DNA from: Bacteroidaceae bacterium
GTDB lineage: Bacteria; Bacteroidota; Bacteroidia; Bacteroidales; Bacteroidaceae
Assembly (NCBI GenBank): GCA_017645305.1
Contig: JAGCPD010000002.1
Coordinates: forward strand, 71,104 to 135,103
Direction of reading: 5' to 3'
DNA: 64,000 bases
In this document: one piece after another, positions 1-47,965 of the stretch
How positions within the stretch are numbered: the stretch's first letter is position 1
Layout: each line of letters opens with the position of its first letter
Made by a program: the position numbers and the translations under genes
Notes under the pieces: generated by a model
Told to the model about the DNA's origin: nothing
Database searches by the model: none
The model's input: only the letters and a program-made list of their open reading frames with translations

Positions 1-823
1 CCATCTCGTAATAAATCTTGTCCTTCTCGAGATACTCCACCAAATCCTGTGTCTTGTCGGCACGTACCCAACCTATCATCAGACGGAGAACATCACCTGC
101 CACACGTTCATCACTCAGATGAACCTTACTGAGGGAAATGTCATTCTGCACTTCTACAAGCCCTTTTTCCAGTTCGTCACGCAAATTAGCATTGATGAAC
201 AGCAACTCGGCACGTACGGCATCCAGTTTCTTCTTTTCTTCCTTGCTTTCTCCGATATAGCCGCTTAAAGTTCCCTTGGGAAGGAAAATCTGCTCGGCCT
301 GGATATCCGGCACGTCCTCACTGAAGGTAATGAAGTAGATACTTTTGTTAATCTCGTTTATAGGCGTAGCGAAATAGGTGTCAATCCACTCACGCTTAAA
401 GAACTTGCTGCTACAACGGTAGAAATGAATCTGCTGAGAACTGGCTTCAGAAAGCGTTTTCACGTTTGCAGGGTCGAAATCGCCCCAATGTTCCAGCATC
501 TGAATATCCTTCTGCAAAGCATCGATGGAATGAAGCAGGTTCAGTTCCTCGGCCTGCAAATCCTCGACATGCTGCAAAAGTTCTGCGGGGGAAGCACTTT
601 CCTTCAATGCATCAGGAAGTGCCATACCCTTATATGTCTTCGCATATATTTCCAAAGCCTGGAGTGCAGCCTTGTAACGCTGCTCCAATGCCATACCATC
701 CTGTAGTTCCTGACTGCTGGCTCCTTTCTGAAGCTGCTGGATGTGTACCACGCCCAAAGTGCGCAAAGAAGCAATAAAAGAATCATATTCTTTTTCTGTC
801 ACCAAGAAGGTGAGCTTTTTCAT
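1..823 (-). CDS. ntpI: V-type ATP synthase subunit I, N-terminal part (3' end runs off the window)
   Basis: My own translation from the ATG at 823-821 on the minus strand gives MKKLTFLVTEKEYDSFIASLRTLGVVHIQQLQKG..., open to position 1. This resembles N-termini of Bacteroidota V-ATPase I subunits. It starts 8 nt after the ntpD stop. It is absent from the ORF track because there is no stop in the window. Confidence 0.8.
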   Translation of the reverse strand, partial: MKKLTFLVTEKEYDSFIASLRTLGVVHIQQLQKGASSQELQDGMALEQRYKAALQALEIYAKTYKGMALPDALKESASPAELLQHVEDLQAEELNLLHSIDALQKDIQMLEHWGDFDPANVKTLSEASSQQIHFYRCSSKFFKREWIDTYFATPINEINKSIYFITFSEDVPDIQAEQIFLPKGTLSGYIGESKEEKKKLDAVRAELLFINANLRDELEKGLVEVQNDISLSKVHLSDERVAGDVLRLMIGWVRADKTQDLVEYLEKDKIYYEM

Positions 824-831
824 TTTCTCAA

Positions 832-1458
832 TCATACAGCAACCTCCTTCTTTTCTTCATCCTCAGTACGTCTTTTTTCCTGCAACGACTTCAGAATCTT
901 CTGTGAAGACTTAGACAGGTTCTCCTCGTCCTCCATGAAACGCTTAATCTTACGGACAGCCTCCTGGAAACCGGGAATCTGAACCTTCTCGAACAGATTA
1001 ACCTTCTGGGTTGTTTTCTTACGTGCATGTTCCAAAAGGCGAAGCTTTGCAAAAACAAACTCGCGCTCTACGGCCGTCTTTGCCAATCCCTGCAAAAGGT
1101 TAATACCATCGAAATACCATTTGGGAGCACTAAACAAGCCGAAGGGTCGTACCTCCAATTCTATGTTGTCAAGAACAGGAATACGCACACCGGCAAACTT
1201 CTTTACACTCAGCTGTACATCCTTCAGGCTGACCAACGTGGTATCAAACTCGCCCCACAAAGCATACATACGCTCGTAACCGGCAATCTGACTTTGCAGC
1301 TTGCGTTCAAGCTCGTCGGCCTCCTCCTTGCACTTCTTCACCTCAAGACGTAACGCCGTTTCCTTGCTTTTTATGATTGGCAAAGTGCGCTGACGCATCT
1401 TCAGGTTTTTCTCGATTTGCTGAAGAGAAGTCTTGTTATACTGAAACTTTATTGCCAT
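832..1458 (-). CDS. ntpD: V-type ATP synthase subunit D
   Basis: 208-aa ORF, MAIKFQYNKTSLQQIEKNLKMRQRTLPIIKSKETALRLEV..., a coiled-coil central-stalk D-subunit pattern. It lies immediately upstream of subunit I. Confidence 0.9.
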   Translation of the reverse strand: MAIKFQYNKTSLQQIEKNLKMRQRTLPIIKSKETALRLEVKKCKEEADELERKLQSQIAGYERMYALWGEFDTTLVSLKDVQLSVKKFAGVRIPVLDNIELEVRPFGLFSAPKWYFDGINLLQGLAKTAVEREFVFAKLRLLEHARKKTTQKVNLFEKVQIPGFQEAVRKIKRFMEDEENLSKSSQKILKSLQEKRRTEDEEKKEVAV

Positions 1459-1498
1459 TTATTATGATGAGTTACACTCTATTTGTCAAATATGGGCA

Positions 1499-1530
1499 CA
1501 AAATTAGCAAAACTTCGCCTAATTTCCAAA
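1499..1530 (-). promoter_or_regulatory. Putative Bacteroidota sigma-A type promoter for ntpD-ntpI
   Basis: The minus strand reads TTTG (1530-1527), a 20-nt spacer, then TAATTTTG (1506-1499). The -7 box is 40 nt upstream of the ntpD ATG. It matches the TTTG-N19-21-TAnnTTTG consensus. Confidence 0.45.
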
Positions 1531-1601
1531 AAAAAGAACCAATCATACAGCAAAAAAGAGATTTCAAGAAAACAGATACACTGTTTTATATAAAAAGTCA
1601 G

Positions 1602-1609
1602 TACATTTG
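1602..1609 (+). promoter_or_regulatory. -7 box TACATTTG placed 4 nt before the flippase ATG (possible leaderless transcript)
   Basis: TACATTTG at 1602-1609, spacer tggc, ATG at 1614. The same TAnnTTTG-N4-ATG geometry occurs at 48037-48051 and on the minus strand at 47973-47959. Confidence 0.4.
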
Positions 1610-1613
1610 TGGC

Positions 1614-3110
1614 ATGATGAATGAGAATTCGCTAAAAGAGCGTACAGCCAAAGGGCTTATCTGGGGAGGTCTGTCGAACGGACTGATGCAGTTGATTGCT
1701 GCAGTCTTTGGTATGGTTCTGCTTATATACCTTACACCGGAAGACAAAGGAAAGGTGGCGGTATTGTACATTTTCTCCGCCATTGCCAGTGCCATGCAGG
1801 AAAGCGGATTTATTGCCGCCCTCTGTAACAGGAAGGAACCGACACACGAGGAATACAATGCCGTATTCTGGTTCAACATAATGGTCAGCGTCACTCTTTA
1901 TATTATATTATGGTTTTGCGCCCCGCTCATCGCCGACTTCTATGGTGACAAAGATTTGATTCCGCTTTCCCGGGTACTTTTCCTTGGATTCCTACTATCC
2001 GGTATCGGTACCGTGCAGAGGGCTTATCTTTTCGGGCATCTTATGGTCAAGCAGACAAGCATCTGTTCCTTGACGGCAATGCTCGTCTCTGGCATTGTAG
2101 GCGTAATAATGGCAGCAAACGGTTTCGCTTATTGGGCTATTGTATCGCAGGCCGTCTGCTTCGTCCTCATTACCCAAATCATGGCGTGGCATTTCTCCCC
2201 ATGGCGACCGACACTGTCCTTCAACCTTGCTCCTGCCTGGAAGATGTTCGGCTTCAGCAGCAAACTGATGCTGACGAATATCGTGAATATCTGCAACCTG
2301 CATGCTTTCTCTGTCCTGCTTGGCAGATTCTTCGGTGAACATACCGCCGGTGTATATTCTACAGCCAGAGATTGGGACGACAAGGCCTCGAACACCATCA
2401 ATGGTATGGTGACTGGCGTGGCCCAACCCACTTTGGCACAGGTGAAAGAGGACATCGGACGCTACCGCCAGGTATTCCGTAAGATGATGCGCTTTGTCTG
2501 CTTTGTAACCTTCCCTGCCATGTTCGGACTGGCTATTATAGCACAGGATTTCATTTTACTGGTGGGTAAAGAGAAATGGGCAGAATCCGGAACCATGCTG
2601 TCGATACTCTGCATACACGGTGCCGTAGTGCCTATTACTACGCTATACAGCAACCTGACCATCAGTCGGGGTAAAAGCAACATCAACATGATTTGTACCG
2701 TTGCCCAATGTCTGGCAGTTTGGACAGGACTTTTGCTGCTTTATCCCAAGGGTATGATGCCTATGGTCATCTACTTCATAGGACTGAATGTTGCATGGTT
2801 AGGTATTTGGCAGTGGTGGGCAAAAAAGCTGGTTGGGCTGCGCTGGAAGGAAACTCTGAAAGACATCCTGCCCTTCCTTGCCTTTACACTTCTCATACAT
2901 TCCTTCACATGGTGGGTGACAAACGACTTGTCATCTCTGTGGGTGAGGATGCTGAGCCGAATTGTCATGGCTGCCACCCTATATGCCGGCATTATGTGGC
3001 TAAGCGGTGCCAAAATTATGCGTGAAACGATAGAATATTTAGCCCCCTCTAACTCCCCCTTTAGGGGAGGAAAGAAATCCCACAAGAATAAACTAGATTC
3101 ACAAGAATGA
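1614..3110 (+). CDS. Wzx-like oligosaccharide/polysaccharide flippase (MOP superfamily)
   Basis: The ORF-track frame is 1377-3110. I place the start at the in-frame ATGATG at 1614 (MMNENSLKERTAKGLIWGGLSNG...) because the upstream part overlaps ntpD. The protein is polytopic, with typical Wzx N-terminal wording. Confidence 0.8.
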   Translation: MMNENSLKERTAKGLIWGGLSNGLMQLIAAVFGMVLLIYLTPEDKGKVAVLYIFSAIASAMQESGFIAALCNRKEPTHEEYNAVFWFNIMVSVTLYIILWFCAPLIADFYGDKDLIPLSRVLFLGFLLSGIGTVQRAYLFGHLMVKQTSICSLTAMLVSGIVGVIMAANGFAYWAIVSQAVCFVLITQIMAWHFSPWRPTLSFNLAPAWKMFGFSSKLMLTNIVNICNLHAFSVLLGRFFGEHTAGVYSTARDWDDKASNTINGMVTGVAQPTLAQVKEDIGRYRQVFRKMMRFVCFVTFPAMFGLAIIAQDFILLVGKEKWAESGTMLSILCIHGAVVPITTLYSNLTISRGKSNINMICTVAQCLAVWTGLLLLYPKGMMPMVIYFIGLNVAWLGIWQWWAKKLVGLRWKETLKDILPFLAFTLLIHSFTWWVTNDLSSLWVRMLSRIVMAATLYAGIMWLSGAKIMRETIEYLAPSNSPFRGGKKSHKNKLDSQE

Positions 3111-5284
3111 ATATAGCAACAGCATCAGAAAAAGAACCCCTCACCCAAAGGGGGAGGACGGGAGGGGGTCTCCGCAACCATGCTTTTGACCTGCTCTGCG
3201 GACTGTGCATCCTGAGGATGGTAACGCTGCACGTTGTCTGCCAGACAACACTGAGGCAGGCTGACTGGTGGAAGGTCATTATGGAGTGGAGCTTCTACCT
3301 GATGAGTTTCTTTTTCTTCAAGGCTGGATATTTCAATAAAGGAGTACAGGGCAATTCGCGTACCTATTGCTGGGACAAGTTCCGCCGCTTGATGATTCCA
3401 TATTTCTCATGGGCTGCCATCAGTGCCTGTGTATGCCTGTTCTTCATGCTGGCTTTCCCCGGAAGATTCCCCGGCACAGAACACTCTTTCCATCACTTCA
3501 GGCTATGGGTAGGAGGCTTTACCTGGGGGAACAGCCCCCTGTGGTTCCTGCCCTGTTTCTTTACCTCTTATATCATTGTCCATTTCATAGAAAAGGTACG
3601 GCATCTGCATCTGGTAATCCTATTCTTCCCGTTGCTAAGCTACTGGCTATATAAACTGGGCAATCCCCTCTACCTGATGATGAACAACGTGTTCTGCGGT
3701 GCCTTCTTCTTTTATTTAGGTAAGGTATGGCACAAGACACTGGACTGGACCGGAGATAAGAAAGGGCTGATACTGAGCATCGTACTGATCGCAGCATTTG
3801 TATGCGTGAACATATACCTGCACGGTGAATATGAAATGAAGACGAACACCTTTACGGGTCCTTTCTGGCAAGTCATGCTCAATACAATACTGGCACTGCT
3901 TGGACTGTCCGGGCTTCCCCTGACCATGCACATCAGGCGCATACCGGGCATCTGCCATATCGGAGAGCACAGCATGGTATATTTTGTGGCGCACTACCCC
4001 CTGATTATGTGCTACGTATATATTGCTACGCTTGCGGGGCATAACATCAAGAAGAGCGTACCCGACATGTTTTTAATGACCATCCTGGTTTTTATTATCT
4101 GCACGTTGTTGGTTCCCCTGGTTGAAAGGGTGTTCTGGCTGAGCGGGAAAAGCCTCCCCCAGCCACTCCGAAAGAAGGACGAACAAACGGGGCGACCTGT
4201 AGTTTATTTCTATCATACTCAAGATACGGTACGGATTGTAAGGGAATGGAAAGAAGGAATCTTTCCTGCCCACTTCCTATATGGAGCCCTGCAACTGGAG
4301 CAGTACGGCTTTGATATCATCTGGCACGACCAGATTCATCTGTACAAACGTGTCCGTGACACCCTGAAGGCTACATGGAAGATTCTTACCTGCCGTAAAC
4401 CTTACGACATTCTGTATGCCACACATACGCGGGGCATTGAACCCATTATACTGCTTCATGCCATAGGTCTATACAGAAAACCCATCGTAGTATGGCATCA
4501 CCAGCCCATCGTAAAGGCAAAGAACCGTTTACGCGAGGCTTTGGCACGCCTTTTCTACCGTGGAATGGACCACATGATATTCTTCTCAGAGAAACTAATA
4601 CAGGACAGCCTGAAATCGGCAAAGGCCGACCCGACCCGCATGAGCATGGTTCACTGGGGGGCCGATCTGGCCTTTTACGACAGCCTCTCCCGTTCCCTCC
4701 AAAAGAGAAGTGGCAATCCATCAGGTGAAACTTCGTCCATCCTCACCTCCAATGGAGGAGCCGGTGGAAGCTTCATCTCCACAGGAAAGGAACTGAGAGA
4801 CTACAAGACACTGACAGAAGCTTTTAACAACACAGGGCTTCCCCTTATACTTTTCACCCAGAAACAACAGGAAGGACTGTTCACCAACCTGAAAAGAAGA
4901 GAGAACATAGACTTGCGTTTTGGAGAACGGCTGATGCCCTATGAGATTGCCCTGTTGGTGGCACAGAGCCAGTGCGTATGCATCTGCTGTAAACAGAGCA
5001 ACTATACGGTAGGACTCACCACCGTTGTAGAAGCAATGGCACTGGGGCTGCCCATCCTATGCACCAGAAACCCGCAGATGCCCATGGATCTGGAGGCAGA
5101 GGGATGCGGCATTTACCTGGAACCTTACGACAGGGAAGGCTGGGAGCGTGCCATCCGGTACATTGCCGAGCACCCCGAAGAGGCTAAGGAAATGGGAAGA
5201 AAGGGCCACCTGCTGGCAGAGAAATACTATAATGTGGAACAATGCGCGAAGGAAGTAGCGAAGATAATTAAAAATGAAGGCTAA
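3107..5284 (+). CDS. Fusion protein: acyltransferase family 3 membrane domain plus C-terminal GT4-type (GT-B) glycosyltransferase domain
   Basis: 725-aa ORF. Residues ~24-350 are paralogous to the ORFs at 45924-46943 and 46933-47961 (RNHAFDLLCGLCILRM..FFFFKAGYFNKG..WLSG). The C-terminal half carries GLTTVVEAMALGLPIL, typical of GT4. The start overlaps the flippase stop (ATGA at 3107-3110). Confidence 0.75.
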   Translation: MNIATASEKEPLTQRGRTGGGLRNHAFDLLCGLCILRMVTLHVVCQTTLRQADWWKVIMEWSFYLMSFFFFKAGYFNKGVQGNSRTYCWDKFRRLMIPYFSWAAISACVCLFFMLAFPGRFPGTEHSFHHFRLWVGGFTWGNSPLWFLPCFFTSYIIVHFIEKVRHLHLVILFFPLLSYWLYKLGNPLYLMMNNVFCGAFFFYLGKVWHKTLDWTGDKKGLILSIVLIAAFVCVNIYLHGEYEMKTNTFTGPFWQVMLNTILALLGLSGLPLTMHIRRIPGICHIGEHSMVYFVAHYPLIMCYVYIATLAGHNIKKSVPDMFLMTILVFIICTLLVPLVERVFWLSGKSLPQPLRKKDEQTGRPVVYFYHTQDTVRIVREWKEGIFPAHFLYGALQLEQYGFDIIWHDQIHLYKRVRDTLKATWKILTCRKPYDILYATHTRGIEPIILLHAIGLYRKPIVVWHHQPIVKAKNRLREALARLFYRGMDHMIFFSEKLIQDSLKSAKADPTRMSMVHWGADLAFYDSLSRSLQKRSGNPSGETSSILTSNGGAGGSFISTGKELRDYKTLTEAFNNTGLPLILFTQKQQEGLFTNLKRRENIDLRFGERLMPYEIALLVAQSQCVCICCKQSNYTVGLTTVVEAMALGLPILCTRNPQMPMDLEAEGCGIYLEPYDREGWERAIRYIAEHPEEAKEMGRKGHLLAEKYYNVEQCAKEVAKIIKNEG

Positions 5285-5293
5285 CCCTTTTTC

Positions 5294-5373
5294 AATTAAC
5301 AATTAACAATTAATAATTATTTCACTAACCGCTAACCACTAACCGCTAACCGCTAACCGCTAACCGCTAACCA
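5294..5373. repeat. Heptamer array: (AATTAAC)x3-4 followed by (CTAACCG)x7
   Basis: Read directly: aattaac aattaac aattaat aattatt tca ctaaccg ctaacca ctaaccg x4 ctaacca. It ends 9 nt before the ATG at 5383. Confidence 0.95.
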
Positions 5374-5382
5374 AGAAAAAAT

Positions 5383-6492
5383 ATGAATTATGAACTAAAC
5401 AAGCGTATAGAATGGCTGGATGCCATGCGAGGATTCACCATGCTGTTGGTAGTGGCTTATCATGTGGCACAATTCGGTTTTGCCGAGAATGAGAAGACAA
5501 GCGCCGCCCTACCCTTTATGGTACTCTTCAGGATGCCACTGTTTTTCTTTGTCAGCGGATTCCTGGCCTACAAGGCCAATTTTCTCTGGAACATTAAAAA
5601 TACTATTCCATTGGTCCTTAAGAAATTGCATGTTCAGATAGTTCCCGCCGTTATATTTCTGTGTATCTTTATTGTCTTCAAATCAAAATACGGTTTCTGG
5701 GAAGGTATGTTGAATGCGCTGAAGAGTCCGACCAAAGACGGGTATTGGTTCACTTGGGTACTTTTGCAAATGTTCCTGATATACTATGTGATATGTATAG
5801 TGGGACAACGGCTTTTCCCCCAGCCCCTCTCTTGTAGGGAGGAAGAAAATAAACCTGCCATTACGGGGAGATTCAGATGCGTCTTTTGGCTTACGGTTTG
5901 GATTCTGTCTATCGTGGCATACGAGACACTGTACCTGCCCAAGCTGTTCTCTTACCATAAGGATATGTTCTTTTCCTATTCCAGCCTGGTGCAGACCATA
6001 CGGTTCATGCAGTTCTTCCTCTTAGGCAATATCGTACACAGATACTGGAAGCAGGTACAGCGGATTTTTGACAGTATCTGGTTCTTCCCCCTTGTGGCGA
6101 CCCTGGCTGTGGTATGCTGTGCCGACATCTTCAGATGGCACACCCTGAAATTTGCATGGACCAACCTGCCCCGCACAACAGCCATGTATGCTCTGCTGCT
6201 GATGGTGGTGATGTTCTTCCGTTTTAACAAGAAATGGTTTACCACAGAACATGCTTTAGGAAGAGCCCTGCAATATACGGGCAAGCGCACCCTGGACGTC
6301 TATCTGCTGCATTTCCTGCTCATCCCCTCCGTACCTTTCGTGGGCACATGGCTGAATACGCACCATCCCAACTTCCTGATAGACCTCTTCGCATCTGTGG
6401 GCATAGCCATTCCCATAGTGGCTGCCTGCCTGCTTATCAGCCACATTCTACACACCAGTCCGGCACTGGGGAAGTTTCTCTTTGGCAAATGA
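5383..6492 (+). CDS. Acyltransferase family 3 membrane protein
   Basis: 369-aa polytopic ORF. The N-terminus RIEWLDAMRGFTMLLVVAYH is typical of acyltransferase-3 (OafA/OatA-like) proteins. Confidence 0.8.
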   Translation: MNYELNKRIEWLDAMRGFTMLLVVAYHVAQFGFAENEKTSAALPFMVLFRMPLFFFVSGFLAYKANFLWNIKNTIPLVLKKLHVQIVPAVIFLCIFIVFKSKYGFWEGMLNALKSPTKDGYWFTWVLLQMFLIYYVICIVGQRLFPQPLSCREEENKPAITGRFRCVFWLTVWILSIVAYETLYLPKLFSYHKDMFFSYSSLVQTIRFMQFFLLGNIVHRYWKQVQRIFDSIWFFPLVATLAVVCCADIFRWHTLKFAWTNLPRTTAMYALLLMVVMFFRFNKKWFTTEHALGRALQYTGKRTLDVYLLHFLLIPSVPFVGTWLNTHHPNFLIDLFASVGIAIPIVAACLLISHILHTSPALGKFLFGK

Positions 6493-6526
6493 CACCTTTT
6501 ATCCAAAGAGCCGATACCTTTATAAG

Positions 6527-6592
6527 TAAATTCAGTGTATTTGATGTGTAAATTCAGTGAATTTGGTCGATAAATTCAGTGAATTTAGAAAA
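6527..6592. repeat. 3 x 22-bp tandem repeat, each unit holding the 15-bp palindrome AAATTCAgTGAATTT
   Basis: Units are at 6527, 6549 and 6571: taaattcagtgtatttgatgtg / taaattcagtgaatttggtcga / taaattcagtgaatttagaaaa. Confidence 0.9.
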
Positions 6593-6608
6593 AGAGCTCC
6601 ACCAAAAC

Positions 6609-6641
6609 AAAAAGGATATGCCTTTATGACATATCCTTTTT
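6609..6641. terminator. Bidirectional intrinsic terminator hairpin between the acyltransferase gene and ntpB
   Basis: 12-bp stem AAAAAGGATATG / CATATCCTTTTT with a 9-nt loop. A/T runs are on both sides. It lies 25 nt downstream of the ntpB stop. Confidence 0.6.
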
Positions 6642-6665
6642 ATATATAAAAGTAGTATAAAGATT

Positions 6666-7988
6666 CTACTTCCAATAGATATCCGTGAACTCCTTCTTGA
6701 TATTCACCTCCTCTAACTTGAAATACTTGCGGAAGAGCTCCCATGTCACGTCAAGCATCTCCTCGGTATTCAAGTTCACGTCAATAGCCAGCAACTTGCT
6801 GGAATAGTCCTTTGCGAAAGCCAGACAGCGGTTATCGTAATCGGTAAGGTCGAAACCGTTCTCCAACTTGGTCTTTGCGTTGGCAGCATCAGCATACAGA
6901 CGGATAGCGGCATTCATTACCTGAGAGTGGTCCTTACGTGTCTTCTTACCAGCAACCAACTGTTTCAGACGGGACAGAGAACGGAAAGGATCAACAATTA
7001 CCTTGCCCACATCACTGTCGCGACGCAGATAGAGCTGACCCTCGGTAATATAACCCGTATTATCAGGAACGGCATGTGTAATGTCGCCACCACTCAGCGT
7101 TGTTACGGCAATAATGGTGATGGAGCCACCGCCTACGCTCTCGGGGAACTGAACGGCCTTCTCGTAAATCTTTGCCAAGTCGGAATAGAGCGAGCCGGGC
7201 ATGGAGTCCTTGGAAGGAATCTGGTCCATACGGTTGCTTACGATACTCAGTGAGTCGGCATAAGAGGTCATATCCGTGAGCAGTACCAGTACTGTCTCAT
7301 GCTTCTCAACGGCAAAGTACTCTGCAGCGGTCAATGCCATATCGGGAATCAGCAGACGCTCTACGGCAGGGTCCTCTGTGGTATTGATGAACGAGATGAT
7401 ACGGTCCAGAGCACCAGCATTGGAGAAGGTGTTGCGGAAGAAGTAATAGTCATCGTTGGTCATACCCATACCACCCAGAATAATCTTGTCGGCCTTGGCA
7501 CGCATGGCCACCAGTGCCATTACCTCGTTGAAAGGCTGGTCAGGGTCGGCAAAGAAAGGAATCTTCTGACCGCTGACAAGGGTATTGTTCATATCGATAC
7601 CTGCAATACCCGTTGCAATCAGTTCGCTGGGCTGCTTACGACGCACGGGATTCACACTGGGACCTCCAATAGGCACTTCCTTGCCCTCTATTTCGGGACC
7701 GCCATCAATAGGATGCCCGTAAGCATTGAAGATTCTTCCGGCCAATTGGTCGCTGACCTTCAGTGAAGGAGACTTGCCAAGGAATGTCACCTCGGCATTG
7801 GTGGGAATACCACCCGTTCCCTCGAACACCTGCAGGGTAACATTGTCGCCTATTATCTTTACCACCTGGGCCAGTTTGCCGTTGATGGTAGCCAATTCAT
7901 CATAACCAACGCCCTTTGCCTTCAGCGAGCAGGTTGCCTTGGTAATCTGACTTATCTGTGTATATACTTTTTGAAATGCTGTACTCAT
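6666..7988 (-). CDS. ntpB: V-type ATP synthase subunit B
   Basis: 440 aa, a typical non-catalytic B subunit (..GQKIPFFADPDQPFNEV.., ..SITIIAVTTLSGGDITHAVPDNTGYITEGQLYL..). Confidence 0.95.
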   Translation of the reverse strand: MSTAFQKVYTQISQITKATCSLKAKGVGYDELATINGKLAQVVKIIGDNVTLQVFEGTGGIPTNAEVTFLGKSPSLKVSDQLAGRIFNAYGHPIDGGPEIEGKEVPIGGPSVNPVRRKQPSELIATGIAGIDMNNTLVSGQKIPFFADPDQPFNEVMALVAMRAKADKIILGGMGMTNDDYYFFRNTFSNAGALDRIISFINTTEDPAVERLLIPDMALTAAEYFAVEKHETVLVLLTDMTSYADSLSIVSNRMDQIPSKDSMPGSLYSDLAKIYEKAVQFPESVGGGSITIIAVTTLSGGDITHAVPDNTGYITEGQLYLRRDSDVGKVIVDPFRSLSRLKQLVAGKKTRKDHSQVMNAAIRLYADAANAKTKLENGFDLTDYDNRCLAFAKDYSSKLLAIDVNLNTEEMLDVTWELFRKYFKLEEVNIKKEFTDIYWK

Positions 7989-7993
7989 CTTTC

Positions 7994-9739
7994 TTATGAA
8001 TTAAGTAAGTTCTCAACTTGCGAAATATAGTCGTAATATTGTTCGCTCTTGAATTGTGAGTAGTTCATCTGCTTACAAAGATTTATCATCTTCTTGAAGT
8101 AGTCGGTAACATCAAGGAACGTATCGAACTTGAAGTCTTCCTTCTCGCAGATTTTGGTAACCAGATTCAAAATCTCCTCCTGACGCTCCAGAGGCGTTAC
8201 GGCATCTACCTCATCGAACGCATCCTGCTGCAGGATAACATAGTCGATGACCTCGGACTTCCAGAACGTTACGTGATAGTCAACGGGTACACCGTCGTCA
8301 CCAAGGATGTTAATCTGCTCGGCAATCTCCTTACCGCGCTGCATACGGGTTTTCAGATTCTGCACCTTGGGAATCCACTCCTCGTTGATATGCTCCTTGA
8401 TATACTCGGCGAACTCGGGGTACTCCAAATACTTGGAATAGGAATCGATGGGGTTCACAGCGGGATAGCGCTTCTTATCGGCGCGGTCCTGCTCCAAGGC
8501 ATAGAAGCAGCGGGCGACCTTCTTGGTATTCTCCGTCACAGGTTCCTTTAGGTTACCACCGGCAGGTGAGACGGTACCCAAGAAGGTAACAGAACCGACT
8601 TCACCATTATTGAGATAAACATATCCGGCACGGCCGTAGAAGTTGCTGATAAGGGCACCTAAGTCCATGGGGAAGGCATCGGGACCAGGCAACTCCTCCA
8701 TACGGTTCGACATCTCACGCAAAGCCTGCGCCCAACGGGAAGTAGAGTCGGCCATCAGAAGCACGCGCAAACCCATGGAGCGGTAATACTCGGCCATCGT
8801 CATAGCAGTATAAACAGAAGCCTCACGGGCAGCAACGGGCATATTGGAGGTGTTGGCAATAATGATTGTACGCTCCATCAGCTTACGACCTGTATGGGGA
8901 TCGACCAACTCGGGGAATTCCGTAAAGATTTCCACTACCTCGTTGGCACGCTCACCGCAGGCTGCAATGATAACGATGTCTGCTTCGGCCTGCTTGGAGA
9001 TAGCGTGCTGCAGCACCGTCTTACCCGTACCGAAGGGACCGGGAATGAAACCCGTACCACCCTCGACAATGGGGTTAAAAGTATCGATGGTGCGGACGCC
9101 CGTCTCTAAAAGTTTGAATGGACGGGGCTTCTCCTTGTAGTTTGTCATGGCAAACTTAACCGGCCAGTGCTGCACCATATCAACGTTGATGTCATTACCC
9201 TGCTCGTCGGTAAGGGTAGCAATGGTATCATGAATCTTGTACTTGCCTGCAGGAGCAATGTACTTTACGGTAGCAACGCCCTTCATTTGGAAGGGAGCCA
9301 TAATCTTCAGCGGCTGATGGTTTTCCTCAACGCCGCCCAGCCAGTCGCTTTCTTCAACCTTGTCACCCACCTTTACGATAGGTTCAAAGTCCCATTCGCG
9401 GTCGGCATCCAAAGGCTCGGTATATTGACCACGCTTCAGGAATACGCCTTCCATCTTGTCGAGGTCATTCTGCAAACCGTCAAAGTTCTTACTTAACATA
9501 CCTGGACCCAGCTGTATCTCCAGCATGTGACCGGTGAACTCAGCCTCGGCACCTACCTTCAAGCCACGAGTTGACTCGAACACCTGAACGTACACATCCT
9601 GACCAACCACCTTGATGACCTCGGCCATCAGGCGGTCACCACCAGTTGTAATGTAGCAGATCTCACCCTGGAGTACAGGTCCGTCAACACGGAGCGTAAC
9701 CATATTGGCAACAACGCCACTAACAGTTCCTTTTGTCAT
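7994..9739 (-). CDS. ntpA: V-type ATP synthase catalytic subunit A
   Basis: 581 aa with Walker A GPFGTGKTV and the conserved ..SRWAQALREMS.. segment. It lies 5 nt upstream of ntpB. Confidence 0.95.
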   Translation of the reverse strand: MTKGTVSGVVANMVTLRVDGPVLQGEICYITTGGDRLMAEVIKVVGQDVYVQVFESTRGLKVGAEAEFTGHMLEIQLGPGMLSKNFDGLQNDLDKMEGVFLKRGQYTEPLDADREWDFEPIVKVGDKVEESDWLGGVEENHQPLKIMAPFQMKGVATVKYIAPAGKYKIHDTIATLTDEQGNDINVDMVQHWPVKFAMTNYKEKPRPFKLLETGVRTIDTFNPIVEGGTGFIPGPFGTGKTVLQHAISKQAEADIVIIAACGERANEVVEIFTEFPELVDPHTGRKLMERTIIIANTSNMPVAAREASVYTAMTMAEYYRSMGLRVLLMADSTSRWAQALREMSNRMEELPGPDAFPMDLGALISNFYGRAGYVYLNNGEVGSVTFLGTVSPAGGNLKEPVTENTKKVARCFYALEQDRADKKRYPAVNPIDSYSKYLEYPEFAEYIKEHINEEWIPKVQNLKTRMQRGKEIAEQINILGDDGVPVDYHVTFWKSEVIDYVILQQDAFDEVDAVTPLERQEEILNLVTKICEKEDFKFDTFLDVTDYFKKMINLCKQMNYSQFKSEQYYDYISQVENLLNS

Positions 9740-9757
9740 GTTATATTCGTTTTATTA

Positions 9758-10606
9758 TTATTTCTGAATGAATTCTTCCGGCACTTTGGCCTCACCACGC
9801 AAATTCTCGATAATCTGCTTGAAAGTCTCCTTACCCTGTTCGGGGTCGAGTTTCGCCCAGCGATACTGCATTTCCAACTTGCAGATGTAAGCATAGACTG
9901 CCTCCAGGCTGAAGGGATTGAAGAAAGTCTTCTCATCCAGCCACAGCCACTTGAAGGCATCAATCATCTTCTCTTTCTTTACCGGGTCTTCCTCATCGAC
10001 AATCTTTATCAGACTTTTCACGTAATCAAACTCGTTGGTAAGATTAAAGTCCTTTGTCTTATTCTCGCGAATCATCTCCTGCACCTCGCCATCGCCTTTA
10101 ATGAACTCTGCAACACTCCAACCCTGTTTGCGTGCCAGCATGGCAGTCAGAATGTTGGTGATGTCCAGGTTCAGCCTGTTCCACTCGCGTATGAATTTAT
10201 TGGGACAAGTCTGAATGGCATAGTTATAGAACTGGTACAGAATCTCATCCTCCGGGAAGTAGCCTTTGGTATCCTTGTTATAGCTGTACTCACGGGCAAA
10301 GATGCTCATGAACGCGGGATAGCGGTGTACGTTGAAGTTCAGTTCCGTGGCACTTGTGATGAGGTCGCGCAACTGCTCCAGCGAGAAATTTCCCCATGCG
10401 TCAATCTCTGCATCGGGGTTCTTGAGCAGACGTACCAGATTTATGCAGTCCTGACGCAGATAGAGGTAGTTGCCCACCAGTTTGGCATCGCTTGCAGAAA
10501 GTTGTTCCTCGCACTGCTCACGCAGTTCCTTGAAGGAAATGCCCGGCTGCGTATCTGCCAACTCGATGTCCGGCAGGCCTGCCATCATGCAATAGTAATT
10601 ACCCAT
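9758..10606 (-). CDS. DUF2764-type protein (V-ATPase subunit C-like position in Bacteroidota operons)
   Basis: 282-aa ORF between subunits E and A. The call rests on position and recollection of the family, not on a motif. Confidence 0.6.
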   Translation of the reverse strand: MGNYYCMMAGLPDIELADTQPGISFKELREQCEEQLSASDAKLVGNYLYLRQDCINLVRLLKNPDAEIDAWGNFSLEQLRDLITSATELNFNVHRYPAFMSIFAREYSYNKDTKGYFPEDEILYQFYNYAIQTCPNKFIREWNRLNLDITNILTAMLARKQGWSVAEFIKGDGEVQEMIRENKTKDFNLTNEFDYVKSLIKIVDEEDPVKKEKMIDAFKWLWLDEKTFFNPFSLEAVYAYICKLEMQYRWAKLDPEQGKETFKQIIENLRGEAKVPEEFIQK

Positions 10607-10651
10607 TTCTTCAATTCATAGTTTTTAATTCATCATTCATAATTTTTTCTT

Positions 10652-10744
10652 GGTTAGCGGAATTTAACGATAACGAAAACGAAAACCAAGACTATTTTCT
10701 TTGTTAATTGTTAATTATGAATTGTGAATTGTAAATTGTGAATT
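10652..10744. repeat. Mosaic short-repeat array (GGTTAGC, AACGAT/AACGAA hexamers, TTGTTAA/TTGTGAA heptamers)
   Basis: Read directly in the ntpE to DUF2764 intergenic gap: ggttagcggaatttaacgataacgaaaacgaaaacc...ttgttaattgttaattatgaattgtgaattgtaaattgtgaatt. Confidence 0.9.
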
Positions 10745-11330
10745 AGAAAAGCATTTCTACAAGTTGAGGACGCAGGAAGTTCTTAAAATAAGCCTCGAAC
10801 TCATCCTTGCCGAAATTCACCTTATAGCTACCGTCTGCGGGAGAAACAGAAAGCATGGTATCCTTCCCGTTTACTTTGTTGATGGTAACCCCTTTATCGA
10901 GGAGTTCCTTAGCATGGGCGGCGAAATATGCCTTCAGACTTTCAGCCTCGTTTGAAGACAGCACCACAGCCTCATTGCCGGCCCACTTACTCGCCAGCAT
11001 CACGGCAAACTGTCCCAGGAAGTTCTTGTCAGCAGCCAAACCAGCTGCAGCATCCTTGGCCACTCTGTCAGTAAGTACATTGGCAATCTCGCTCTTCAGC
11101 GCATTCAATGCCTGACTTGTATAAAGCTTCAGCTCGCTTTTTGTGTTTGTATCCAATTCGGATGCCTTCTTCTGAGCCTGAGCCTCAATAGCCTTAGCCT
11201 GCTCCCTTGCTTCTGCAATAATCTGCTCGGCCGTATGCTTTGCCTCCTCGACAATACGATCTGCTTCGGCCTGACCTTTTTCTACGCCTTCGCGATAGAT
11301 TTTCTCAGTAAGTTCTTGTATTTTTTCCAT
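10743..11330 (-). CDS. ntpE: V-type ATP synthase subunit E-like (peripheral stalk)
   Basis: 195 aa. The N-terminal half is an A/E/K-rich coiled coil (..AEADRIVEEAKHTAEQIIAEAREQAKAIEAQAQKKA..). It is the first gene of the V-ATPase cluster. Confidence 0.75.
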   Translation of the reverse strand: MEKIQELTEKIYREGVEKGQAEADRIVEEAKHTAEQIIAEAREQAKAIEAQAQKKASELDTNTKSELKLYTSQALNALKSEIANVLTDRVAKDAAAGLAADKNFLGQFAVMLASKWAGNEAVVLSSNEAESLKAYFAAHAKELLDKGVTINKVNGKDTMLSVSPADGSYKVNFGKDEFEAYFKNFLRPQLVEMLF

Positions 11331-11484
11331 TCTGTCTTATATGTTGTTTTTTTTCTTTTCAAGATTCATATAAGCCCCTATATTTATATATAAGTGACCT
11401 ATTTCGCCGCGAAGATATAAAAAAATACAATAGAAAAGTAAAAAAGCCGTCACTTTTTTCTTTATCATGCACAGAGGCACACCA

Positions 11485-13413
11485 TTAGGCACGAATAGAG
11501 AGCTTGCGCGACAGCGTTTCCCCACTACGGAATGATGCACGGACAACATACAAGCCCGGTGACAACAAGGGCAAACGTATTGACTTGTAATGTCCCCTAA
11601 GAGACATAAGGGATCGACCGTTCAAATCAAGAATCTGCACACTACAAAACTCCTCGGATGCCTGCAGTTGATAGTCACCTTCGCTCCCCACCAGCTGTAA
11701 TACATCCGGCTCCTGTCCGGGTATCTGACGTAATGACGTTTCCTGTTCATTGGCATGGAAATGCAAGGGCATCCACGTAAACGGACCATCTGGTTTAGCA
11801 TCGGCAATACGCTCCTCAACATGAGTAGTGCCGTCTCCGTTAGTGACCTGAATATTAAAAGTCATGGCCTTGCCAAGCGGTGCCTTTTCCCTGCCAAGTT
11901 CCGACCAAGGAACAGCCATCTCGAATGTATAATACCTGGAATTTGCATTAAAAGCCAAGTGAGAGGCCGAAGGCTCCTGCCGTTCCCACGAGGTACCTGT
12001 ACCTTTGAACAAAGCAAGGGTGGCATTGGGTGAGACATCATAGCGGTACGATGTATTCTGAGGTGTTGTATAGGGAGCAGACTCCGTTTCTATGCCAATG
12101 CTGACGACATCGGCATGTTCACCGTCAGCAACCAACAAATTATCGTAAACACGGCAGATAACATAAAGCGAATCATCATCGTAGGCTAAATCGGCATATG
12201 TATAGGTCTCTGTCTCACTGCCCAGCAGAATCTGTTCGGCTTTTGAAGAAAAATATCCTTCATAAACGGAACGTACACCATTAACAGCAGGATGTCCGTA
12301 GGGCACCTCAAACTGATGCCGGGGATAGCCCTTTACCATCTGTACACCGCCTCCATAACCGGAAACAGCCACTACCACGCCAGTATCTATCACTGCCAAA
12401 GAGTTCCAAAGCGCACTCTGATCCTGCGGGACGGGGAAGGGGCTGCTCATAGCCTTGAAGTTACGTGCCGACTTATTGCCCACATAGACATACATATCCG
12501 GCTTTCCGGAATGATTGTAAGGTGACTGATGAGACAGAACCGTCTCACCATTAGGCAATACACGCAGATAAGGTGCACCACCAGTAGCCACGGGACAATA
12601 ATTATAGTCGATTGCCTTGGTTCGGAGTGAACTCGAAGCAGGAACGAAACTCTTCCAGTTGCGCGTAAGAGAATTACGCACAATGGTAGGTACAAAATCA
12701 TTATAGCCCCAACCATTATCCTCTATAGCCACCGCTATGGTTGTACTGTCCTGCAGCAAAACAGGCACAGGCATTCCATCGCGAAAACCGGCACGATAAG
12801 AGACACAAGCAGGTGTGGACCAGGTAAGACCTTTATCGAACGAACGGCAAACAGAAATCTGCTGGTCCGCATTGGTGTCATACGGACTCTCATCAGCAAA
12901 ATACAGCTGCAGTTCACCAGAAGGAAGCTCCAGCAAACATGGTTCCCAACAACCCACCTCGGGTGTAGAACCGGCATCGTAAACGACAATTTCCTGCCCC
13001 CAAGTCCGGCCGTTATCCGTACTGCGCTTCAAGCGGATACTGAAACGCCTGTCATCGGTATAAGGAGTAGAAGGACGGGGATTATAGGCAACAATAATGG
13101 TACCGTCATGCAACTGAATCATATCCGGCACACAATTGGGGACATTGTTTGTATTGGTAACAATGGTAGTAGGTTCCCTCCATGTCTGCCCCTTGTTAGA
13201 ACTGAAGGATATACGTATACCACCCCATTCACAACAGGCAATCAGCCGGCCATCCTGCAATTCCATAACACGGGCATATCCACCACCGCCAAACACCTTG
13301 ACCGGGGTACGGGAGTCCCAAAATATACGGGAACCCGTATAAGGCTGTGTCTTAGCGGCAAAGGTGTACAGCACATTCAACAGAAAAACGGAAAGCAGAA
13401 GGAACGGCCTCAT
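11485..13413 (-). CDS. Secreted BNR-repeat (sialidase-fold) protein with a T9SS C-terminal sorting domain
   Basis: Signal peptide MRPFLLLSVFLLNVLYTFA. BNR motifs are SNKGQTW, STDNGRTW and SFDKGLTW. The C-terminal ~80 aa (..VQILDLNGRSLMSL..LSPGLYVVRASF..) look like a T9SS CTD. Confidence 0.7.
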   Translation of the reverse strand: MRPFLLLSVFLLNVLYTFAAKTQPYTGSRIFWDSRTPVKVFGGGGYARVMELQDGRLIACCEWGGIRISFSSNKGQTWREPTTIVTNTNNVPNCVPDMIQLHDGTIIVAYNPRPSTPYTDDRRFSIRLKRSTDNGRTWGQEIVVYDAGSTPEVGCWEPCLLELPSGELQLYFADESPYDTNADQQISVCRSFDKGLTWSTPACVSYRAGFRDGMPVPVLLQDSTTIAVAIEDNGWGYNDFVPTIVRNSLTRNWKSFVPASSSLRTKAIDYNYCPVATGGAPYLRVLPNGETVLSHQSPYNHSGKPDMYVYVGNKSARNFKAMSSPFPVPQDQSALWNSLAVIDTGVVVAVSGYGGGVQMVKGYPRHQFEVPYGHPAVNGVRSVYEGYFSSKAEQILLGSETETYTYADLAYDDDSLYVICRVYDNLLVADGEHADVVSIGIETESAPYTTPQNTSYRYDVSPNATLALFKGTGTSWERQEPSASHLAFNANSRYYTFEMAVPWSELGREKAPLGKAMTFNIQVTNGDGTTHVEERIADAKPDGPFTWMPLHFHANEQETSLRQIPGQEPDVLQLVGSEGDYQLQASEEFCSVQILDLNGRSLMSLRGHYKSIRLPLLSPGLYVVRASFRSGETLSRKLSIRA

Positions 13414-45439: not shown

Positions 45440-45443
45440 GCTC

Positions 45444-47961: not shown

Positions 47962-47965
47962 AATG

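What the first reader, a model, noticed from the sequence alone, without database searches (positions are those of the whole stretch)
1459..6665. V-type ATPase operon is physically split between ntpB and ntpD by a 5.2-kb opposite-strand glycan cassette
On the minus strand the order is ntpE, DUF2764, ntpA, ntpB (ending at 6666), then ntpD (starting at 1458) and ntpI. The A-B and D-I junctions are 5-8 nt, but B and D are 5207 bp apart. That gap holds three plus-strand genes: a Wzx-like flippase, an AT3::GT4 fusion and an AT3. Signals at the edges would make the two halves independent transcription units. A 12-bp-stem bidirectional hairpin (6609-6641) sits 25 nt after the ntpB stop. A consensus TTTG-N20-TAATTTTG promoter lies on the minus strand (1530-1499), 40 nt before ntpD. 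A rotary ATPase needs balanced subunit supply. Interrupting its operon with convergently transcribed surface-glycan genes is therefore unexpected, and it looks like an insertion with compensating signals. No integrase or transposase is present to explain it.
Basis: partly seen in the sequence, partly recalled or inferred. Interest (0 to 1): 0.7.

Follow-up and report, generated by a model that had tools for sequence, protein, structure and literature searches.

The report
Old, stable split of V-ATPase operon
In a group of uncultured rumen Prevotella-like bacteria, the seven-gene sodium-pump (V-type ATPase) operon was cut in two long ago by a neighbouring native protein-glycosylation gene set, and each half now appears to have its own start and stop signals. 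This is a tidy example of operon break-up, not a foreign insertion or a new kind of system.

Summary
On the minus strand, ntpE-DUF2764-ntpA-ntpB ends at 6666 and ntpD-ntpI starts at 1458. The 5,207 bp between them carry three plus-strand genes: a Wzx flippase, an AT3::GT4 fusion and an AT3.

- **The split is derived.** 128 related loci have ntpB and ntpD adjacent.
- **The edge signals track the split.** A Bacteroidota -7 box (TAnnTTTG) lies 20-80 nt upstream of ntpD in 11 of 11 split loci and 0 of 128 adjacent loci. Every cassette-bearing relative has its own non-homologous hairpin plus U-run after ntpB.
- **It is not a recent or foreign insertion.** Composition and codon usage are native. The same arrangement is fixed in at least four or five species-level lineages with saturated synonymous divergence. 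All genes are under strong purifying selection.
- **The cassette is a native neighbour.** The flippase is the family's counterpart of the Bacteroides O-glycosylation (LFG) Wzx. In related species it sits beside the operon.
- **A sister clade has gone further.** There the two halves are unlinked, about 78 kb apart and inverted on one contig.

Split F-type ATPase loci are already well documented. I rate this a new variant of a known kind, of moderate interest. No transcript data were available.

The parts
1..835 (-). ntpI (V-ATPase subunit I/a), N-terminal part; the gene runs off the left end of the window
   Evidence: tblastn to NtpI of relatives. The ATG at 835 overlaps the ntpD stop as ATGA. 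The same -4 overlap occurs in 154 of 154 related loci.
832..1458 (-). ntpD (central-stalk subunit D), first gene of the downstream half
   Evidence: Pfam ATP-synt_D, E = 1.7e-36. dN/dS is 0.015-0.036 against clade members.
1459..1613 (.). 155-bp divergent intergenic region between ntpD and wzx, carrying both predicted promoters
   Evidence: It is 154-156 nt long and highly conserved in all 8 cassette-clade sequences.
1499..1530 (-). Predicted ntpD promoter, TTTG-N20-TAATTTTG; the -7 box occupies 1506-1499, 40 nt before the ATG
   Evidence: Only match to the pattern in 64 kb. The -7 box is conserved in the clade. A box lies at -80 to -20 of ntpD in 11 of 11 split loci and 0 of 128 adjacent loci.
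1602..1609 (+). Predicted wzx -7 box TACATTTG, 4 nt before the ATG (leaderless or near-leaderless mRNA inferred)
   Evidence: The equivalent box is conserved in the clade.
1614..3110 (+). Wzx-type MOP flippase, closest to the Bacteroidota O-glycosylation (LFG) flippase
   Evidence: Pfam Polysacc_synt_3, E = 2e-70. NCBIfam NF058658 Oglyco_Wzx scores 608.6 bits over the full length (cut-off 720; next family 186 bits).
3107..5284 (+). AT3::GT4 fusion (acyltransferase-3 membrane domain plus GT-B glycosyltransferase)
   Evidence: Pfam Acyl_transf_3 at residues 24-335 and Glycos_transf_1/Glyco_transf_4 at 411-717. Fused in all cassette-clade members. Two separate genes in L085 and L168.
5325..5373 (.). 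(CTAACCG)x7 tandem heptamer in the 98-nt spacer upstream of AT3
   Evidence: Specific to the window; relatives carry other short repeats at this position.
5383..6492 (+). AT3 acyltransferase
   Evidence: Pfam Acyl_transf_3, E = 1.7e-23.
6527..6587 (.). Three copies of the 17-bp palindrome TAAATTCA-N-TGAATTTA at 22-bp spacing, in the convergent spacer
   Evidence: 5 matches against 0.3 expected. Absent from relatives. Role unknown.
6609..6641 (.). Bidirectional intrinsic-terminator-like hairpin shared by the ntpB and AT3 transcripts
   Evidence: z = -5.6 and -3.4, U-runs on both strands. Non-homologous equivalents follow ntpB in L001, L002, L005, L082 and L083.
6666..7988 (-). ntpB, last gene of the upstream half
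   Evidence: Pfam ATP-synt_ab and ATP-synt_VA_C. 97-99% identical within the clade.
7994..9739 (-). ntpA (catalytic subunit)
   Evidence: Pfam.
9758..10606 (-). DUF2764 protein, the Bacteroidota-specific second gene of the operon
   Evidence: Pfam DUF2764, E = 2e-66, plus a weak vATP-synt_AC39 match at 1.7e-5. Position as in B. fragilis (PMC10790697).
10743..11330 (-). ntpE (peripheral-stalk subunit E), first gene of the operon
   Evidence: NCBIfam V-type subunit E, E = 1e-22, below its cut-off. Conserved position in relatives.
11410..11417 (-). Candidate ntpE -7 box TATCTTCG, 87 nt upstream of the ATG
   Evidence: A TA(C/T)CTT(C/T)G box sits at the corresponding place in relatives.

Best explanation
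**What it is.** The window comes from an uncultured rumen Prevotellaceae bacterium (filed under Bacteroidaceae in the record titles). Its closest relative in the genome scan is a sheep-rumen MAG. In its lineage the seven-gene Bacteroidota V-type ATPase operon (ntpE-DUF2764-A-B-D-I-K) was broken once, long ago, between ntpB and ntpD.

**What fills the gap.** The intervening 5.2 kb is not foreign DNA. It is a native three-gene unit headed by the family's counterpart of the O-glycosylation (LFG-type) Wzx flippase. A glycosyltransferase and two acyltransferase domains follow. In related species this flippase lies beside the operon, either divergent from ntpE or downstream of ntpK. A local rearrangement between neighbours is therefore the likeliest origin. 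The exact steps are not resolved.

**How it works (inferred from sequence signals).** The locus runs as three transcription units.
1. P(ntpE) drives ntpE-DUF2764-ntpA-ntpB, which stops at the hairpin 6609-6641.
2. P(wzx) drives wzx, AT3::GT4 and AT3, which stop at the same hairpin from the other side.
3. P(ntpD), in the conserved 155-bp divergent region, drives ntpD-ntpI-ntpK.

The break separates the A/B catalytic head genes (with E and DUF2764) from the rotor shaft and membrane sector (D, I, K). Supply of each half can then be set by its own promoter.

**Wider pattern.** The arrangement has been stable and functional across several species. In a sister clade the same break widened until the halves became unlinked.
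For: **The split is derived and clade-specific.**
- In the NtpB scan of 80 species genomes, 3 share the cassette (L001, L002, L005).
- 11 have no ntpD downstream of ntpB; 9 of these have at least 5.9 kb of downstream sequence.
- 66 have B and D adjacent.
- The NtpD metagenome scan adds L081-L084 with the cassette, plus stand-alone ntpD-I-K loci.

**The signals track the split.**
- The -7 box is found upstream of ntpD in 11 of 11 split loci and 0 of 128 adjacent loci. More split loci with the box appear.
- TAnnTTTG marks heads of transcription units in this window.
- A terminator hairpin follows ntpB in the window and in five relatives, each with unrelated sequence.

**The cassette is native and old.**
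- GC, GC3, codon-usage distance and tetranucleotide distance of the cassette fall within the window's range.
- dS is 0.7-3.0 and dN/dS is 0.015-0.11 for all nine genes between clade members.

**The flippase is a long-standing neighbour.**
- All ntp-linked Wzx genes match Oglyco_Wzx over their full length at 584-660 bits.
- They lie upstream of ntpE in 11 or more loci, or downstream of ntpK in L093 and L059.

**Single origin is likely.**
- Wzx genes next to ntpD (cassette clade plus L085, L097, L168) are monophyletic, bootstrap 98.
- The genome that holds L015 and L170 is closest to the cassette clade in six of seven subunits; for NtpE the L044 group and L093 are as close or closer.

**The halves can work unlinked.**
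- L015 (E-B) and L170 (D-I-K) lie on the same 181,013-bp contig, about 78 kb apart and on opposite strands.

**E-B stayed in place.**
- The DsbD-like gene upstream of ntpE is shared with contiguous-operon relatives.
Against: - No transcript data exist. Promoters and terminators are motif and folding predictions.
- The ntpE-ntpB neighbour-joining tree places four contiguous-operon species (L042, L043, L048, L059) and L028 inside the clade that holds both split groups. The bootstraps are 74 for that clade and 40 for the inner node. If that placement is true, it would require independent breaks or a reversal.
- The rearrangement steps are unresolved. No conserved scar or repeat marks the cassette borders.
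- The Oglyco_Wzx score is below NCBI's cut-off (608 against 720). metG, which flanks canonical LFG loci, is not adjacent.
- All comparison sequences are MAG or metagenome contigs.
- The B-D junction is not uniquely loose. Other junctions also vary in length.
Confidence: 0.75

Rival explanations
1. Recent insertion of a foreign, horizontally acquired surface-glycan island into the operon, followed by compensating signals.
For: The contiguous operon is the majority and ancestral state. Cassette proteins diverge more than ATPase subunits within the clade, 68-93% against 94-100% identity. In the Wzx tree the cassette flippase is sister to the L034 group and not to L059, the only member of the closest contiguous-operon group with a flippase in the tree. 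That leaves room for an old within-family transfer.
Against: Composition and codon usage are native. No integrase, transposase or conserved flanking repeats are present. The cassette is fixed in every sampled member of a clade with saturated dS. The flippase is the family's own ntp-linked orthologue. Its divergence is on a par with the variable N-terminal part of NtpI.
Confidence: 0.08
2. The operon is still one transcription unit. RNA polymerase reads from ntpB through the cassette in antisense to ntpD, and the hairpin and the box are incidental.
For: There are no transcript data. Intrinsic terminators can be leaky. Many contiguous relatives carry stable hairpins in the B-D gap yet stay operonic.
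Against: Such a transcript would need 5.2 kb of antisense transcription against a convergent three-gene unit. The hairpin plus U-run is strong, and each relative has an unrelated hairpin of its own in this position. The ntpD -7 box is exclusive to split loci. In the sister clade D-I-K is expressed from loci with no ntpB within 7-10 kb, behind the same kind of box.
Confidence: 0.07
3. The split is adaptive coupling. The shared 155-bp divergent region co-regulates the rotor and membrane half (D-I-K) with the O-glycosylation flippase unit, giving separate control of the catalytic head and the membrane sector.
For: The divergent region is highly conserved in length and sequence across the clade. 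The Wzx-ntpD adjacency persists in part of the sister clade after E-B moved away (L085, L097, L168). The extended motif TAnnTTYGYGnC occurs only three times in 64 kb, at the ntpD, wzx and ntpE promoters.
Against: Other sister-clade members have lost the adjacency: GH127, pantothenate kinase or a GT4 gene lies upstream of ntpD. L085 and L168 have an extra gene between wzx and ntpD. Three motif matches are within the chance count. No regulator or operator was identified.
Confidence: 0.1
4. Assembly artefact, that is, a chimeric contig.
For: The comparison data are metagenome assemblies.
Against: The same gene order is found in at least seven independent assemblies from different studies and hosts: L001, L002, L005 and L081-L084. 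The junction sequences are conserved.
Confidence: 0.01

Closest known systems
Bacteroides fragilis V-type ATPase operon (ptos_002482-88; PMC10790697)
   Same: Same reduced subunit set, with DUF2764 as the second gene. The paper describes it as a putative Na+-translocating pump needed for fitness in deoxycholate.
   Different: There it is drawn and treated as one contiguous operon. Here it is interrupted between ntpB and ntpD by 5.2 kb of opposite-strand genes.
Split F-type ATP synthase loci (alpha-, delta- and epsilon-proteobacteria, cyanobacteria, Chlorobi, Bacteroidetes; PMC4154653, PMC5709465)
   Same: Genes of a rotary ATPase lie in two or more separate, clade-conserved transcription units. 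Distances range from a few ORFs to megabases. The cited authors conclude that the system tolerates a split between any subunits.
   Different: Those are F-type enzymes with other breakpoints (for example gamma|beta, b|delta, c|b). Here the enzyme is V-type and the break is B|D. A graded natural series is visible within one family: contiguous, 5 kb apart, then about 78 kb apart. I found no description of a V-type split in the searched library. That is absence of evidence only.
LFG locus for general protein O-glycosylation in Bacteroides (metG-wzx-variable GTs-two conserved GTs; PMC12871550)
   Same: The flippase matches the Oglyco_Wzx model over its full length and far better than any other family. 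It is followed by a glycosyltransferase. O-glycans of the phylum are commonly O-acetylated, which fits the AT3 domains.
   Different: The score is below the curated cut-off. There is no metG next to it. It has one GT domain rather than a series. It has two AT3 acyltransferase domains. It is embedded in the ntp locus.
Enterococcus hirae ntp operon and Thermus thermophilus atp operon (own knowledge, not checked here)
   Same: Bacterial V/A-type ATPases with A, B, D, E, I and K homologues.
   Different: As I recall, these are single operons with more accessory subunits (C, F, G) and no intervening genes.

Membership tests
Bacteroidota seven-gene V-type ATPase (ntpE-DUF2764-A-B-D-I-K) | All seven subunit genes present and under purifying selection | tested here: met
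   E, DUF2764, A, B, D and I are in the window. K follows I in clade relatives. dN/dS is 0.015-0.094.
Bacteroidota seven-gene V-type ATPase (ntpE-DUF2764-A-B-D-I-K) | Genes contiguous in one operon | tested here: not met
   5,207 bp with three opposite-strand genes lie between ntpB and ntpD.
Split rotary-ATPase locus (separate, clade-conserved transcription units) | Same break conserved across related species | tested here: met
   Window plus L001, L002, L005 and L081-L084. In the sister clade the halves are unlinked.
Split rotary-ATPase locus (separate, clade-conserved transcription units) | Each part has its own promoter, and the upstream part has a terminator | tested here: inconclusive
   Motif and folding evidence is strong. 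There is no transcript mapping.
Genomic island or mobile-element insertion | Integrase, transposase or recombinase gene | tested here: not met
   Only flippase, AT3::GT4 and AT3 lie in 1459-6665.
Genomic island or mobile-element insertion | Atypical base composition or codon usage | tested here: not met
   GC is 0.47-0.50 against a window mean of 0.48. Codon distance is 0.80-0.95 against 0.96 +/- 0.20. 27% of comparable 4.9-kb windows have an equal or greater tetranucleotide distance.
Genomic island or mobile-element insertion | Flanking direct repeats or a target-site duplication | tested here: inconclusive
   A 20-nt, 80% identical AT-rich repeat lies at both borders (1584-1603 and 6638-6657). 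The ntpB-side border is not conserved in relatives.
Genomic island or mobile-element insertion | Patchy presence among close relatives | tested here: not met
   Present in every sampled member of the clade.
LFG-type O-glycosylation locus (Bacteroidota) | Wzx flippase of the O-glycosylation type | tested here: inconclusive
   NF058658 scores 608.6 bits over the full length against a cut-off of 720. The next best family scores 186 bits.
LFG-type O-glycosylation locus (Bacteroidota) | metG adjacent, and a series of glycosyltransferases ending in two conserved ones (PMC12871550) | tested here: not met
   No metG in the window. Only one GT domain is in the unit.
Bacteroidota primary-sigma promoter (TTTG / TAnnTTTG) | -33 TTTG and -7 TAnnTTTG at about 19-21 nt spacing (consensus from own knowledge) | tested here: met
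   TTTG-N20-TAATTTTG at 1530-1499. The box is conserved in the clade.
Bacteroidota primary-sigma promoter (TTTG / TAnnTTTG) | Transcription start a few nt downstream of the -7 box | not testable with these tools
   Needs 5'-end mapping.
Intrinsic bidirectional terminator | Stable stem-loop followed by a U-run on both strands | tested here: met

The most novel reading that the evidence does not exclude
The break is not neutral. It lets these rumen bacteria control the catalytic head (E, DUF2764, A, B) separately from the rotor and membrane sector (D, I, K). The latter is co-regulated with the O-glycosylation flippase through the conserved 155-bp divergent promoter region. This would be a bacterial, transcription-level analogue of regulated V1/Vo balance.
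Probability: 0.1. Interest if true: 0.6.

Novelty: new variant of a known kind. Interest (0 to 1): 0.35.

Why it matters
Within one bacterial family the data show three stages of operon break-up for an essential-type multi-subunit machine:
- contiguous;
- interrupted by 5 kb;
- halves about 78 kb apart.

The promoter motif upstream of the downstream half is present only where the break exists. This makes a clean comparative system for asking how a new promoter and terminator arise when an operon is cut. It also allows a test of how much linkage a rotary ATPase needs for balanced subunit supply.

The locus also flags a compact Wzx-GT-acyltransferase unit as a candidate for the poorly mapped O-glycosylation machinery of Prevotellaceae.

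It does not reveal a new kind of system.

Tried and rejected
1. **Different histories for the two halves.** A tree of NtpD plus the first 280 residues of NtpI grouped the stand-alone D-I-K loci with L044, L052 and L078 at bootstrap 100. This conflicts with the ntpE-ntpB tree. Full-length per-subunit identities show the L015/L170 genome closest to the cassette clade in six of seven subunits; NtpE alone is ambiguous. The conflict is confined to the variable N-terminal domain of NtpI. I dropped the idea of modular exchange.
2. **Origin of the ntpD promoter.** I asked whether it is a copy of the ntpE promoter, carried in with the cassette or made by tandem duplication and loss. The boxes are similar: TAnnTT(T/C)G(T/C)GnC occurs only at ntpD, wzx and ntpE. 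But three matches are within the chance count, and the 5' leaders do not align. Undecided.
3. **Border scars.** A 20-nt AT-rich repeat flanks the cassette in the window. The ntpB-side spacer is hypervariable (117-2,187 nt) and unrelated among relatives.
4. **Rfam.** Searches of window 1-12000 and of the L005 spacer found nothing credible.
5. **Sigma-70 scan.** It gave TTGACA-17-CATAAT directly before ntpD. Bacteroidota use a different promoter type, so I did not rely on it.
6. **B|D as the operon's loosest junction.** Only weakly supported: 26% of gaps are 100 nt or longer, against 11-24% at the other four junctions that vary in length. D-I is always a 4-nt overlap.
7. **PDB sequence searches.** Searches with DUF2764 and with the fusion protein were uninformative.
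8. **MITE test.** The ~390-nt element in the L001 and L005 spacers is found only at that site.

Full report
**1. Observation**

ORF listing and Pfam scans confirm the described layout.
- Minus strand: ntpE (10743-11330), a DUF2764 gene (9758-10606), ntpA (7994-9739) and ntpB (6666-7988). After 5,207 bp come ntpD (832-1458) and ntpI, which runs off the window.
- Plus strand, in the gap: a Wzx/MOP flippase (1614-3110), a single 725-aa ORF joining an Acyl_transf_3 domain to a GT4-type glycosyltransferase (3107-5284), and a second Acyl_transf_3 protein (5383-6492).
- The A-B spacer is 5 nt.
- The D-I junction is a 4-nt ATGA overlap if ntpI starts at 835. All 154 related loci show the same overlap.

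The hairpin at 6609-6641 folds far better than shuffled sequence on both strands and is followed by U-runs on both. TTTG-N20-TAATTTTG at 1530-1499 is unique in the window. TAnnTT(T/C)G boxes in this window sit upstream of genes that head transcription units. None sits upstream of the internal genes of the ntp operon or of the cassette.

**2. Comparative synteny**

*Genome scan.* NtpB was scanned against one genome per species and returned 80 loci at 92-99% identity. All are rumen or gut Prevotellaceae MAGs. tblastn with the window's proteins gave three states.
- Cassette: the same three genes lie between ntpB and ntpD only in L001, L002 and L005, the closest relatives.
- Adjacent: B and D are neighbours in 66 loci.
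- B-only: 11 loci have no ntpD downstream of ntpB. Nine of them have 5.9-10 kb of downstream sequence.

*Metagenome scan.* NtpD was scanned against metagenome contigs.
- It added four more cassette-type contigs (L081-L084).
- It added many adjacent loci.
- It found stand-alone ntpD-I-K loci with no ntpB upstream (L085, L087, L097).

Further stand-alone loci came from exact-protein look-ups (L165-L172). In all, 128 loci have B and D adjacent, with a median gap of about 23 nt and a maximum of about 510 nt.

*Neighbours in the B-only clade.* ntpB is followed by a conserved set of unrelated genes, including a sigma factor and a GH66 enzyme. In L015 it is followed by purM, prfA, pyrF, lpxC-fabZ and lpxA.

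*The link between the halves.* NtpI protein P0143 is encoded on NODE_34_length_181013 (ENA plus NCBI, run SRR10912534). That matches the 181,013-bp contig CAMZAE010000002.1 that carries L015. On that contig ntpE-B lies near 23-28 kb on one strand. ntpD-I-K lies near 106-109 kb on the other strand.

**3. Signals track the split**

*Promoter.* A -7 box lies 20-80 nt upstream of ntpD in 11 of 11 split loci and in 0 of 128 adjacent loci. The seven additional stand-alone loci also carry one. Among adjacent loci with a B-D gap of at least 40 nt, only 2 of 51 contain any TAnnTTTG, and those boxes lie 180 nt upstream.

*Divergent region.* The 154-156-nt wzx-ntpD intergenic region is conserved almost base for base in the eight cassette-clade sequences. 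Both boxes are included.

*Terminator.* The convergent ntpB-AT3 spacer is hypervariable, at 117 to 2,187 nt. L083 has an extra 662-aa ORF there. Yet every member has a stem-loop plus U-run shortly after the ntpB stop, and the stems are unrelated in sequence. The hairpins are unrelated in sequence yet sit at the same position in every member. That pattern argues they are maintained for function.

**4. The cassette is neither recent nor foreign**

GC content, GC3, codon-usage distance and tetranucleotide distance of 1614-6492 all fall inside the spread of the window's other genes.

Between the window and L001, L002 or L005, synonymous divergence is 0.7-3.0, at or near saturation. dN/dS is 0.015-0.05 for ATPase subunits other than the N-terminal part of NtpI, and 0.05-0.11 for the cassette genes and that part of NtpI. 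The arrangement has therefore persisted through long divergence with every gene functional.

Cassette proteins are 68-93% identical within the clade. That is similar to the variable N-terminal part of NtpI, at 73-83%.

**5. What the cassette is**

The flippase matches NCBIfam NF058658 'O-glycosylation flippase' over its full length at 608.6 bits. The next family scores 186 bits. The curated cut-off is 720.

Six flippases linked to the ntp operon in other species score 584-660 bits on the same model. Together they form one orthologous group, most simply the Prevotellaceae counterpart of the Bacteroides LFG Wzx.

The LFG locus is described as metG-wzx-variable glycosyltransferases-two conserved glycosyltransferases. 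The O-glycans are often O-acetylated (PMC12871550). The unit here lacks metG and has only one GT domain, so I call it LFG-like and not a member.

The position of this flippase relative to the operon varies across the family.
- Divergent from ntpE in at least 11 loci: L007, L009, L034-L036, L039-L041, L051, L161 and L162.
- Downstream of ntpK in L093 and L059. Of these two, only the L093 flippase was scored against the model.
- Between B and D in the window's clade.
- Upstream of a stand-alone ntpD in L085, L097 and L168. There the AT3 and GT4 parts are two genes in the same order, so the fusion is a derived trait of the window's clade.

**6. History (inference)**

Flippases adjacent to ntpD form one clade, bootstrap 98. 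The genome with unlinked halves (L015 plus L170) is closest to the cassette clade in six of seven subunits; for NtpE the L044 group and L093 are as close or closer.

The DsbD-like gene upstream of ntpE is shared by four groups:
- the window's clade;
- L028;
- the four contiguous species L042, L043, L048 and L059;
- the outgroups L038 and L045.

This shared neighbour shows that ntpE-B kept its upstream neighbour.

The simplest reading has three steps.
1. One ancestral event placed the flippase unit between ntpB and ntpD.
2. The window's clade keeps that state.
3. In the sister clade, later rearrangements moved ntpE-B away. In some members the flippase unit upstream of ntpD was replaced.

Caveats:
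- The trees are neighbour-joining on few genes.
- The ntpE-ntpB tree nests the four contiguous species and L028 within the group at weak support, bootstrap 40.
- The actual rearrangement is unresolved. It could be a transposition of a neighbour, nested inversions, or duplication followed by loss.

**7. How it most likely works**

Three units are inferred from the signals above.
1. P(ntpE) drives E-DUF2764-A-B to the terminator. The candidate box TATCTTCG lies at 11417-11410.
2. P(wzx) drives wzx, AT3::GT4 and AT3 to the same terminator. Its box ends 4 nt before the ATG, which suggests a leaderless mRNA.
3. P(ntpD) drives D-I-K.

The break falls between the genes of the A3B3 head with its stator parts and the genes of the shaft, the a-type subunit and the ring. 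This boundary between structural modules resembles those reported for split F-type loci (PMC5709465). That balanced supply can be reached without linkage is shown by the sister clade and by the many split F-type loci (PMC4154653).

**8. Comparison and verdict**

The enzyme is the seven-gene Bacteroidota V-ATPase described in B. fragilis as a putative Na+ pump needed in deoxycholate (PMC10790697). The organisation is a V-type counterpart of the well-known split F-type loci. I found no description of it in the searched literature.

It is a new variant of a known kind. It is interesting as a graded natural series of operon break-up with apparent promoter and terminator gain. It would not surprise a specialist.

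The window itself is ordinary chromosome, carrying fabF, rnc, pckA, rpoBC and rplJ/A.

Noticed in passing
window 6527-6587: Three copies of a 17-bp palindrome (TAAATTCA-N-TGAATTTA) at exact 22-bp spacing. They lie in the convergent spacer between AT3 and the terminator. There are 5 matches against 0.3 expected. The array looks like an operator for a dimeric regulator, but it lies at the 3' ends of both genes and is absent from relatives.
   Followed up: partly
window 5325-5373: Seven tandem copies of the heptamer CTAACCG in the 98-nt spacer just upstream of the AT3 gene. Relatives carry different short tandem repeats at the same place (TTCTTCACTC x3, CATAATTCA x3). This may be a slipped-strand (phase-variable) control of the acyltransferase.
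   Followed up: partly
window 3107-5284; L085 5818-7862; L168 2596-4633: The AT3 acyltransferase and the GT4 glycosyltransferase are fused into one ORF in every member of the window's clade. In the sister lineage they are two overlapping or adjacent genes in the same order. How widespread an AT3::GT4 architecture is was not surveyed.
   Followed up: partly
window 9758-10606: The DUF2764 protein gives a weak Pfam match to the V-ATPase AC39 (subunit d/C) family: E = 1.7e-5, 24.8 bits, below the cut-off. This hints that it is the missing rotor-socket subunit of the reduced Bacteroidota enzyme. A PDB sequence search found nothing.
   Followed up: partly
NtpI N-terminal ~280 residues: window 1-835 against L085 10603-11450 and L170: The cytoplasmic N-terminal domain of NtpI is only 42-45% identical between the cassette clade and the unlinked clade, while the full-length proteins are 68-69% identical. 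In trees this domain groups with L044, L052 and L078. This points to accelerated change or domain-level recombination after the halves separated.
   Followed up: partly
L004 9790-10299 (between ntpB and ntpD): One otherwise contiguous operon has a ~100-aa ORF in a 510-nt B-D gap. By eye it resembles the 'four-helix-bundle / 23S rRNA intervening-sequence' protein family (not scanned). Many other adjacent loci have GC-rich CCCTCCC/GGGAGGG hairpin elements in the B-D gap, folding at up to -42 kcal/mol.
   Followed up: no
L083 1980-4166: A 2.2-kb insert, read as a single 662-aa ORF by my simple caller, lies between the ntpB terminator and AT3 in one clade member. By eye its start resembles a Na/Pi-cotransporter-like protein and its end a winged-helix response-regulator output domain (not scanned). 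This shows the convergent spacer accepts further genes.
   Followed up: no
L001 11436-11819 and L005 11523-11902: A shared ~390-nt structured, repeat-rich element lies in the ntpB-AT3 spacer of two relatives. It is absent from the window, has no Rfam match, and was not found elsewhere in the fetched loci.
   Followed up: partly
window 43506-53642: A second, separate glycan or teichoic-acid-like gene cluster. It holds LicD, an asparagine-synthase-like protein, a cytidylyltransferase, two AT3 acyltransferases, GT1, GT2, a CDP-alcohol phosphatidyltransferase and an IspD-like cytidylyltransferase. proC sits in the middle.
   Followed up: no
L028 11321-18707: A further species whose ntpB is followed by 7.4 kb without ntpD. 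It groups with contiguous-operon species in the ntpE-ntpB tree (bootstrap 78). This may be an independent break at the same junction.
   Followed up: no
L087 (1083-1324, 3238-3337, 4986-5079, 5736-5841) and L011 (15810-15917, 17760-17942): A ~100-nt intergenic repeat occurs several times in a stand-alone D-I-K contig and in a B-only locus. It is probably a lineage-specific REP/MITE-like element.
   Followed up: no
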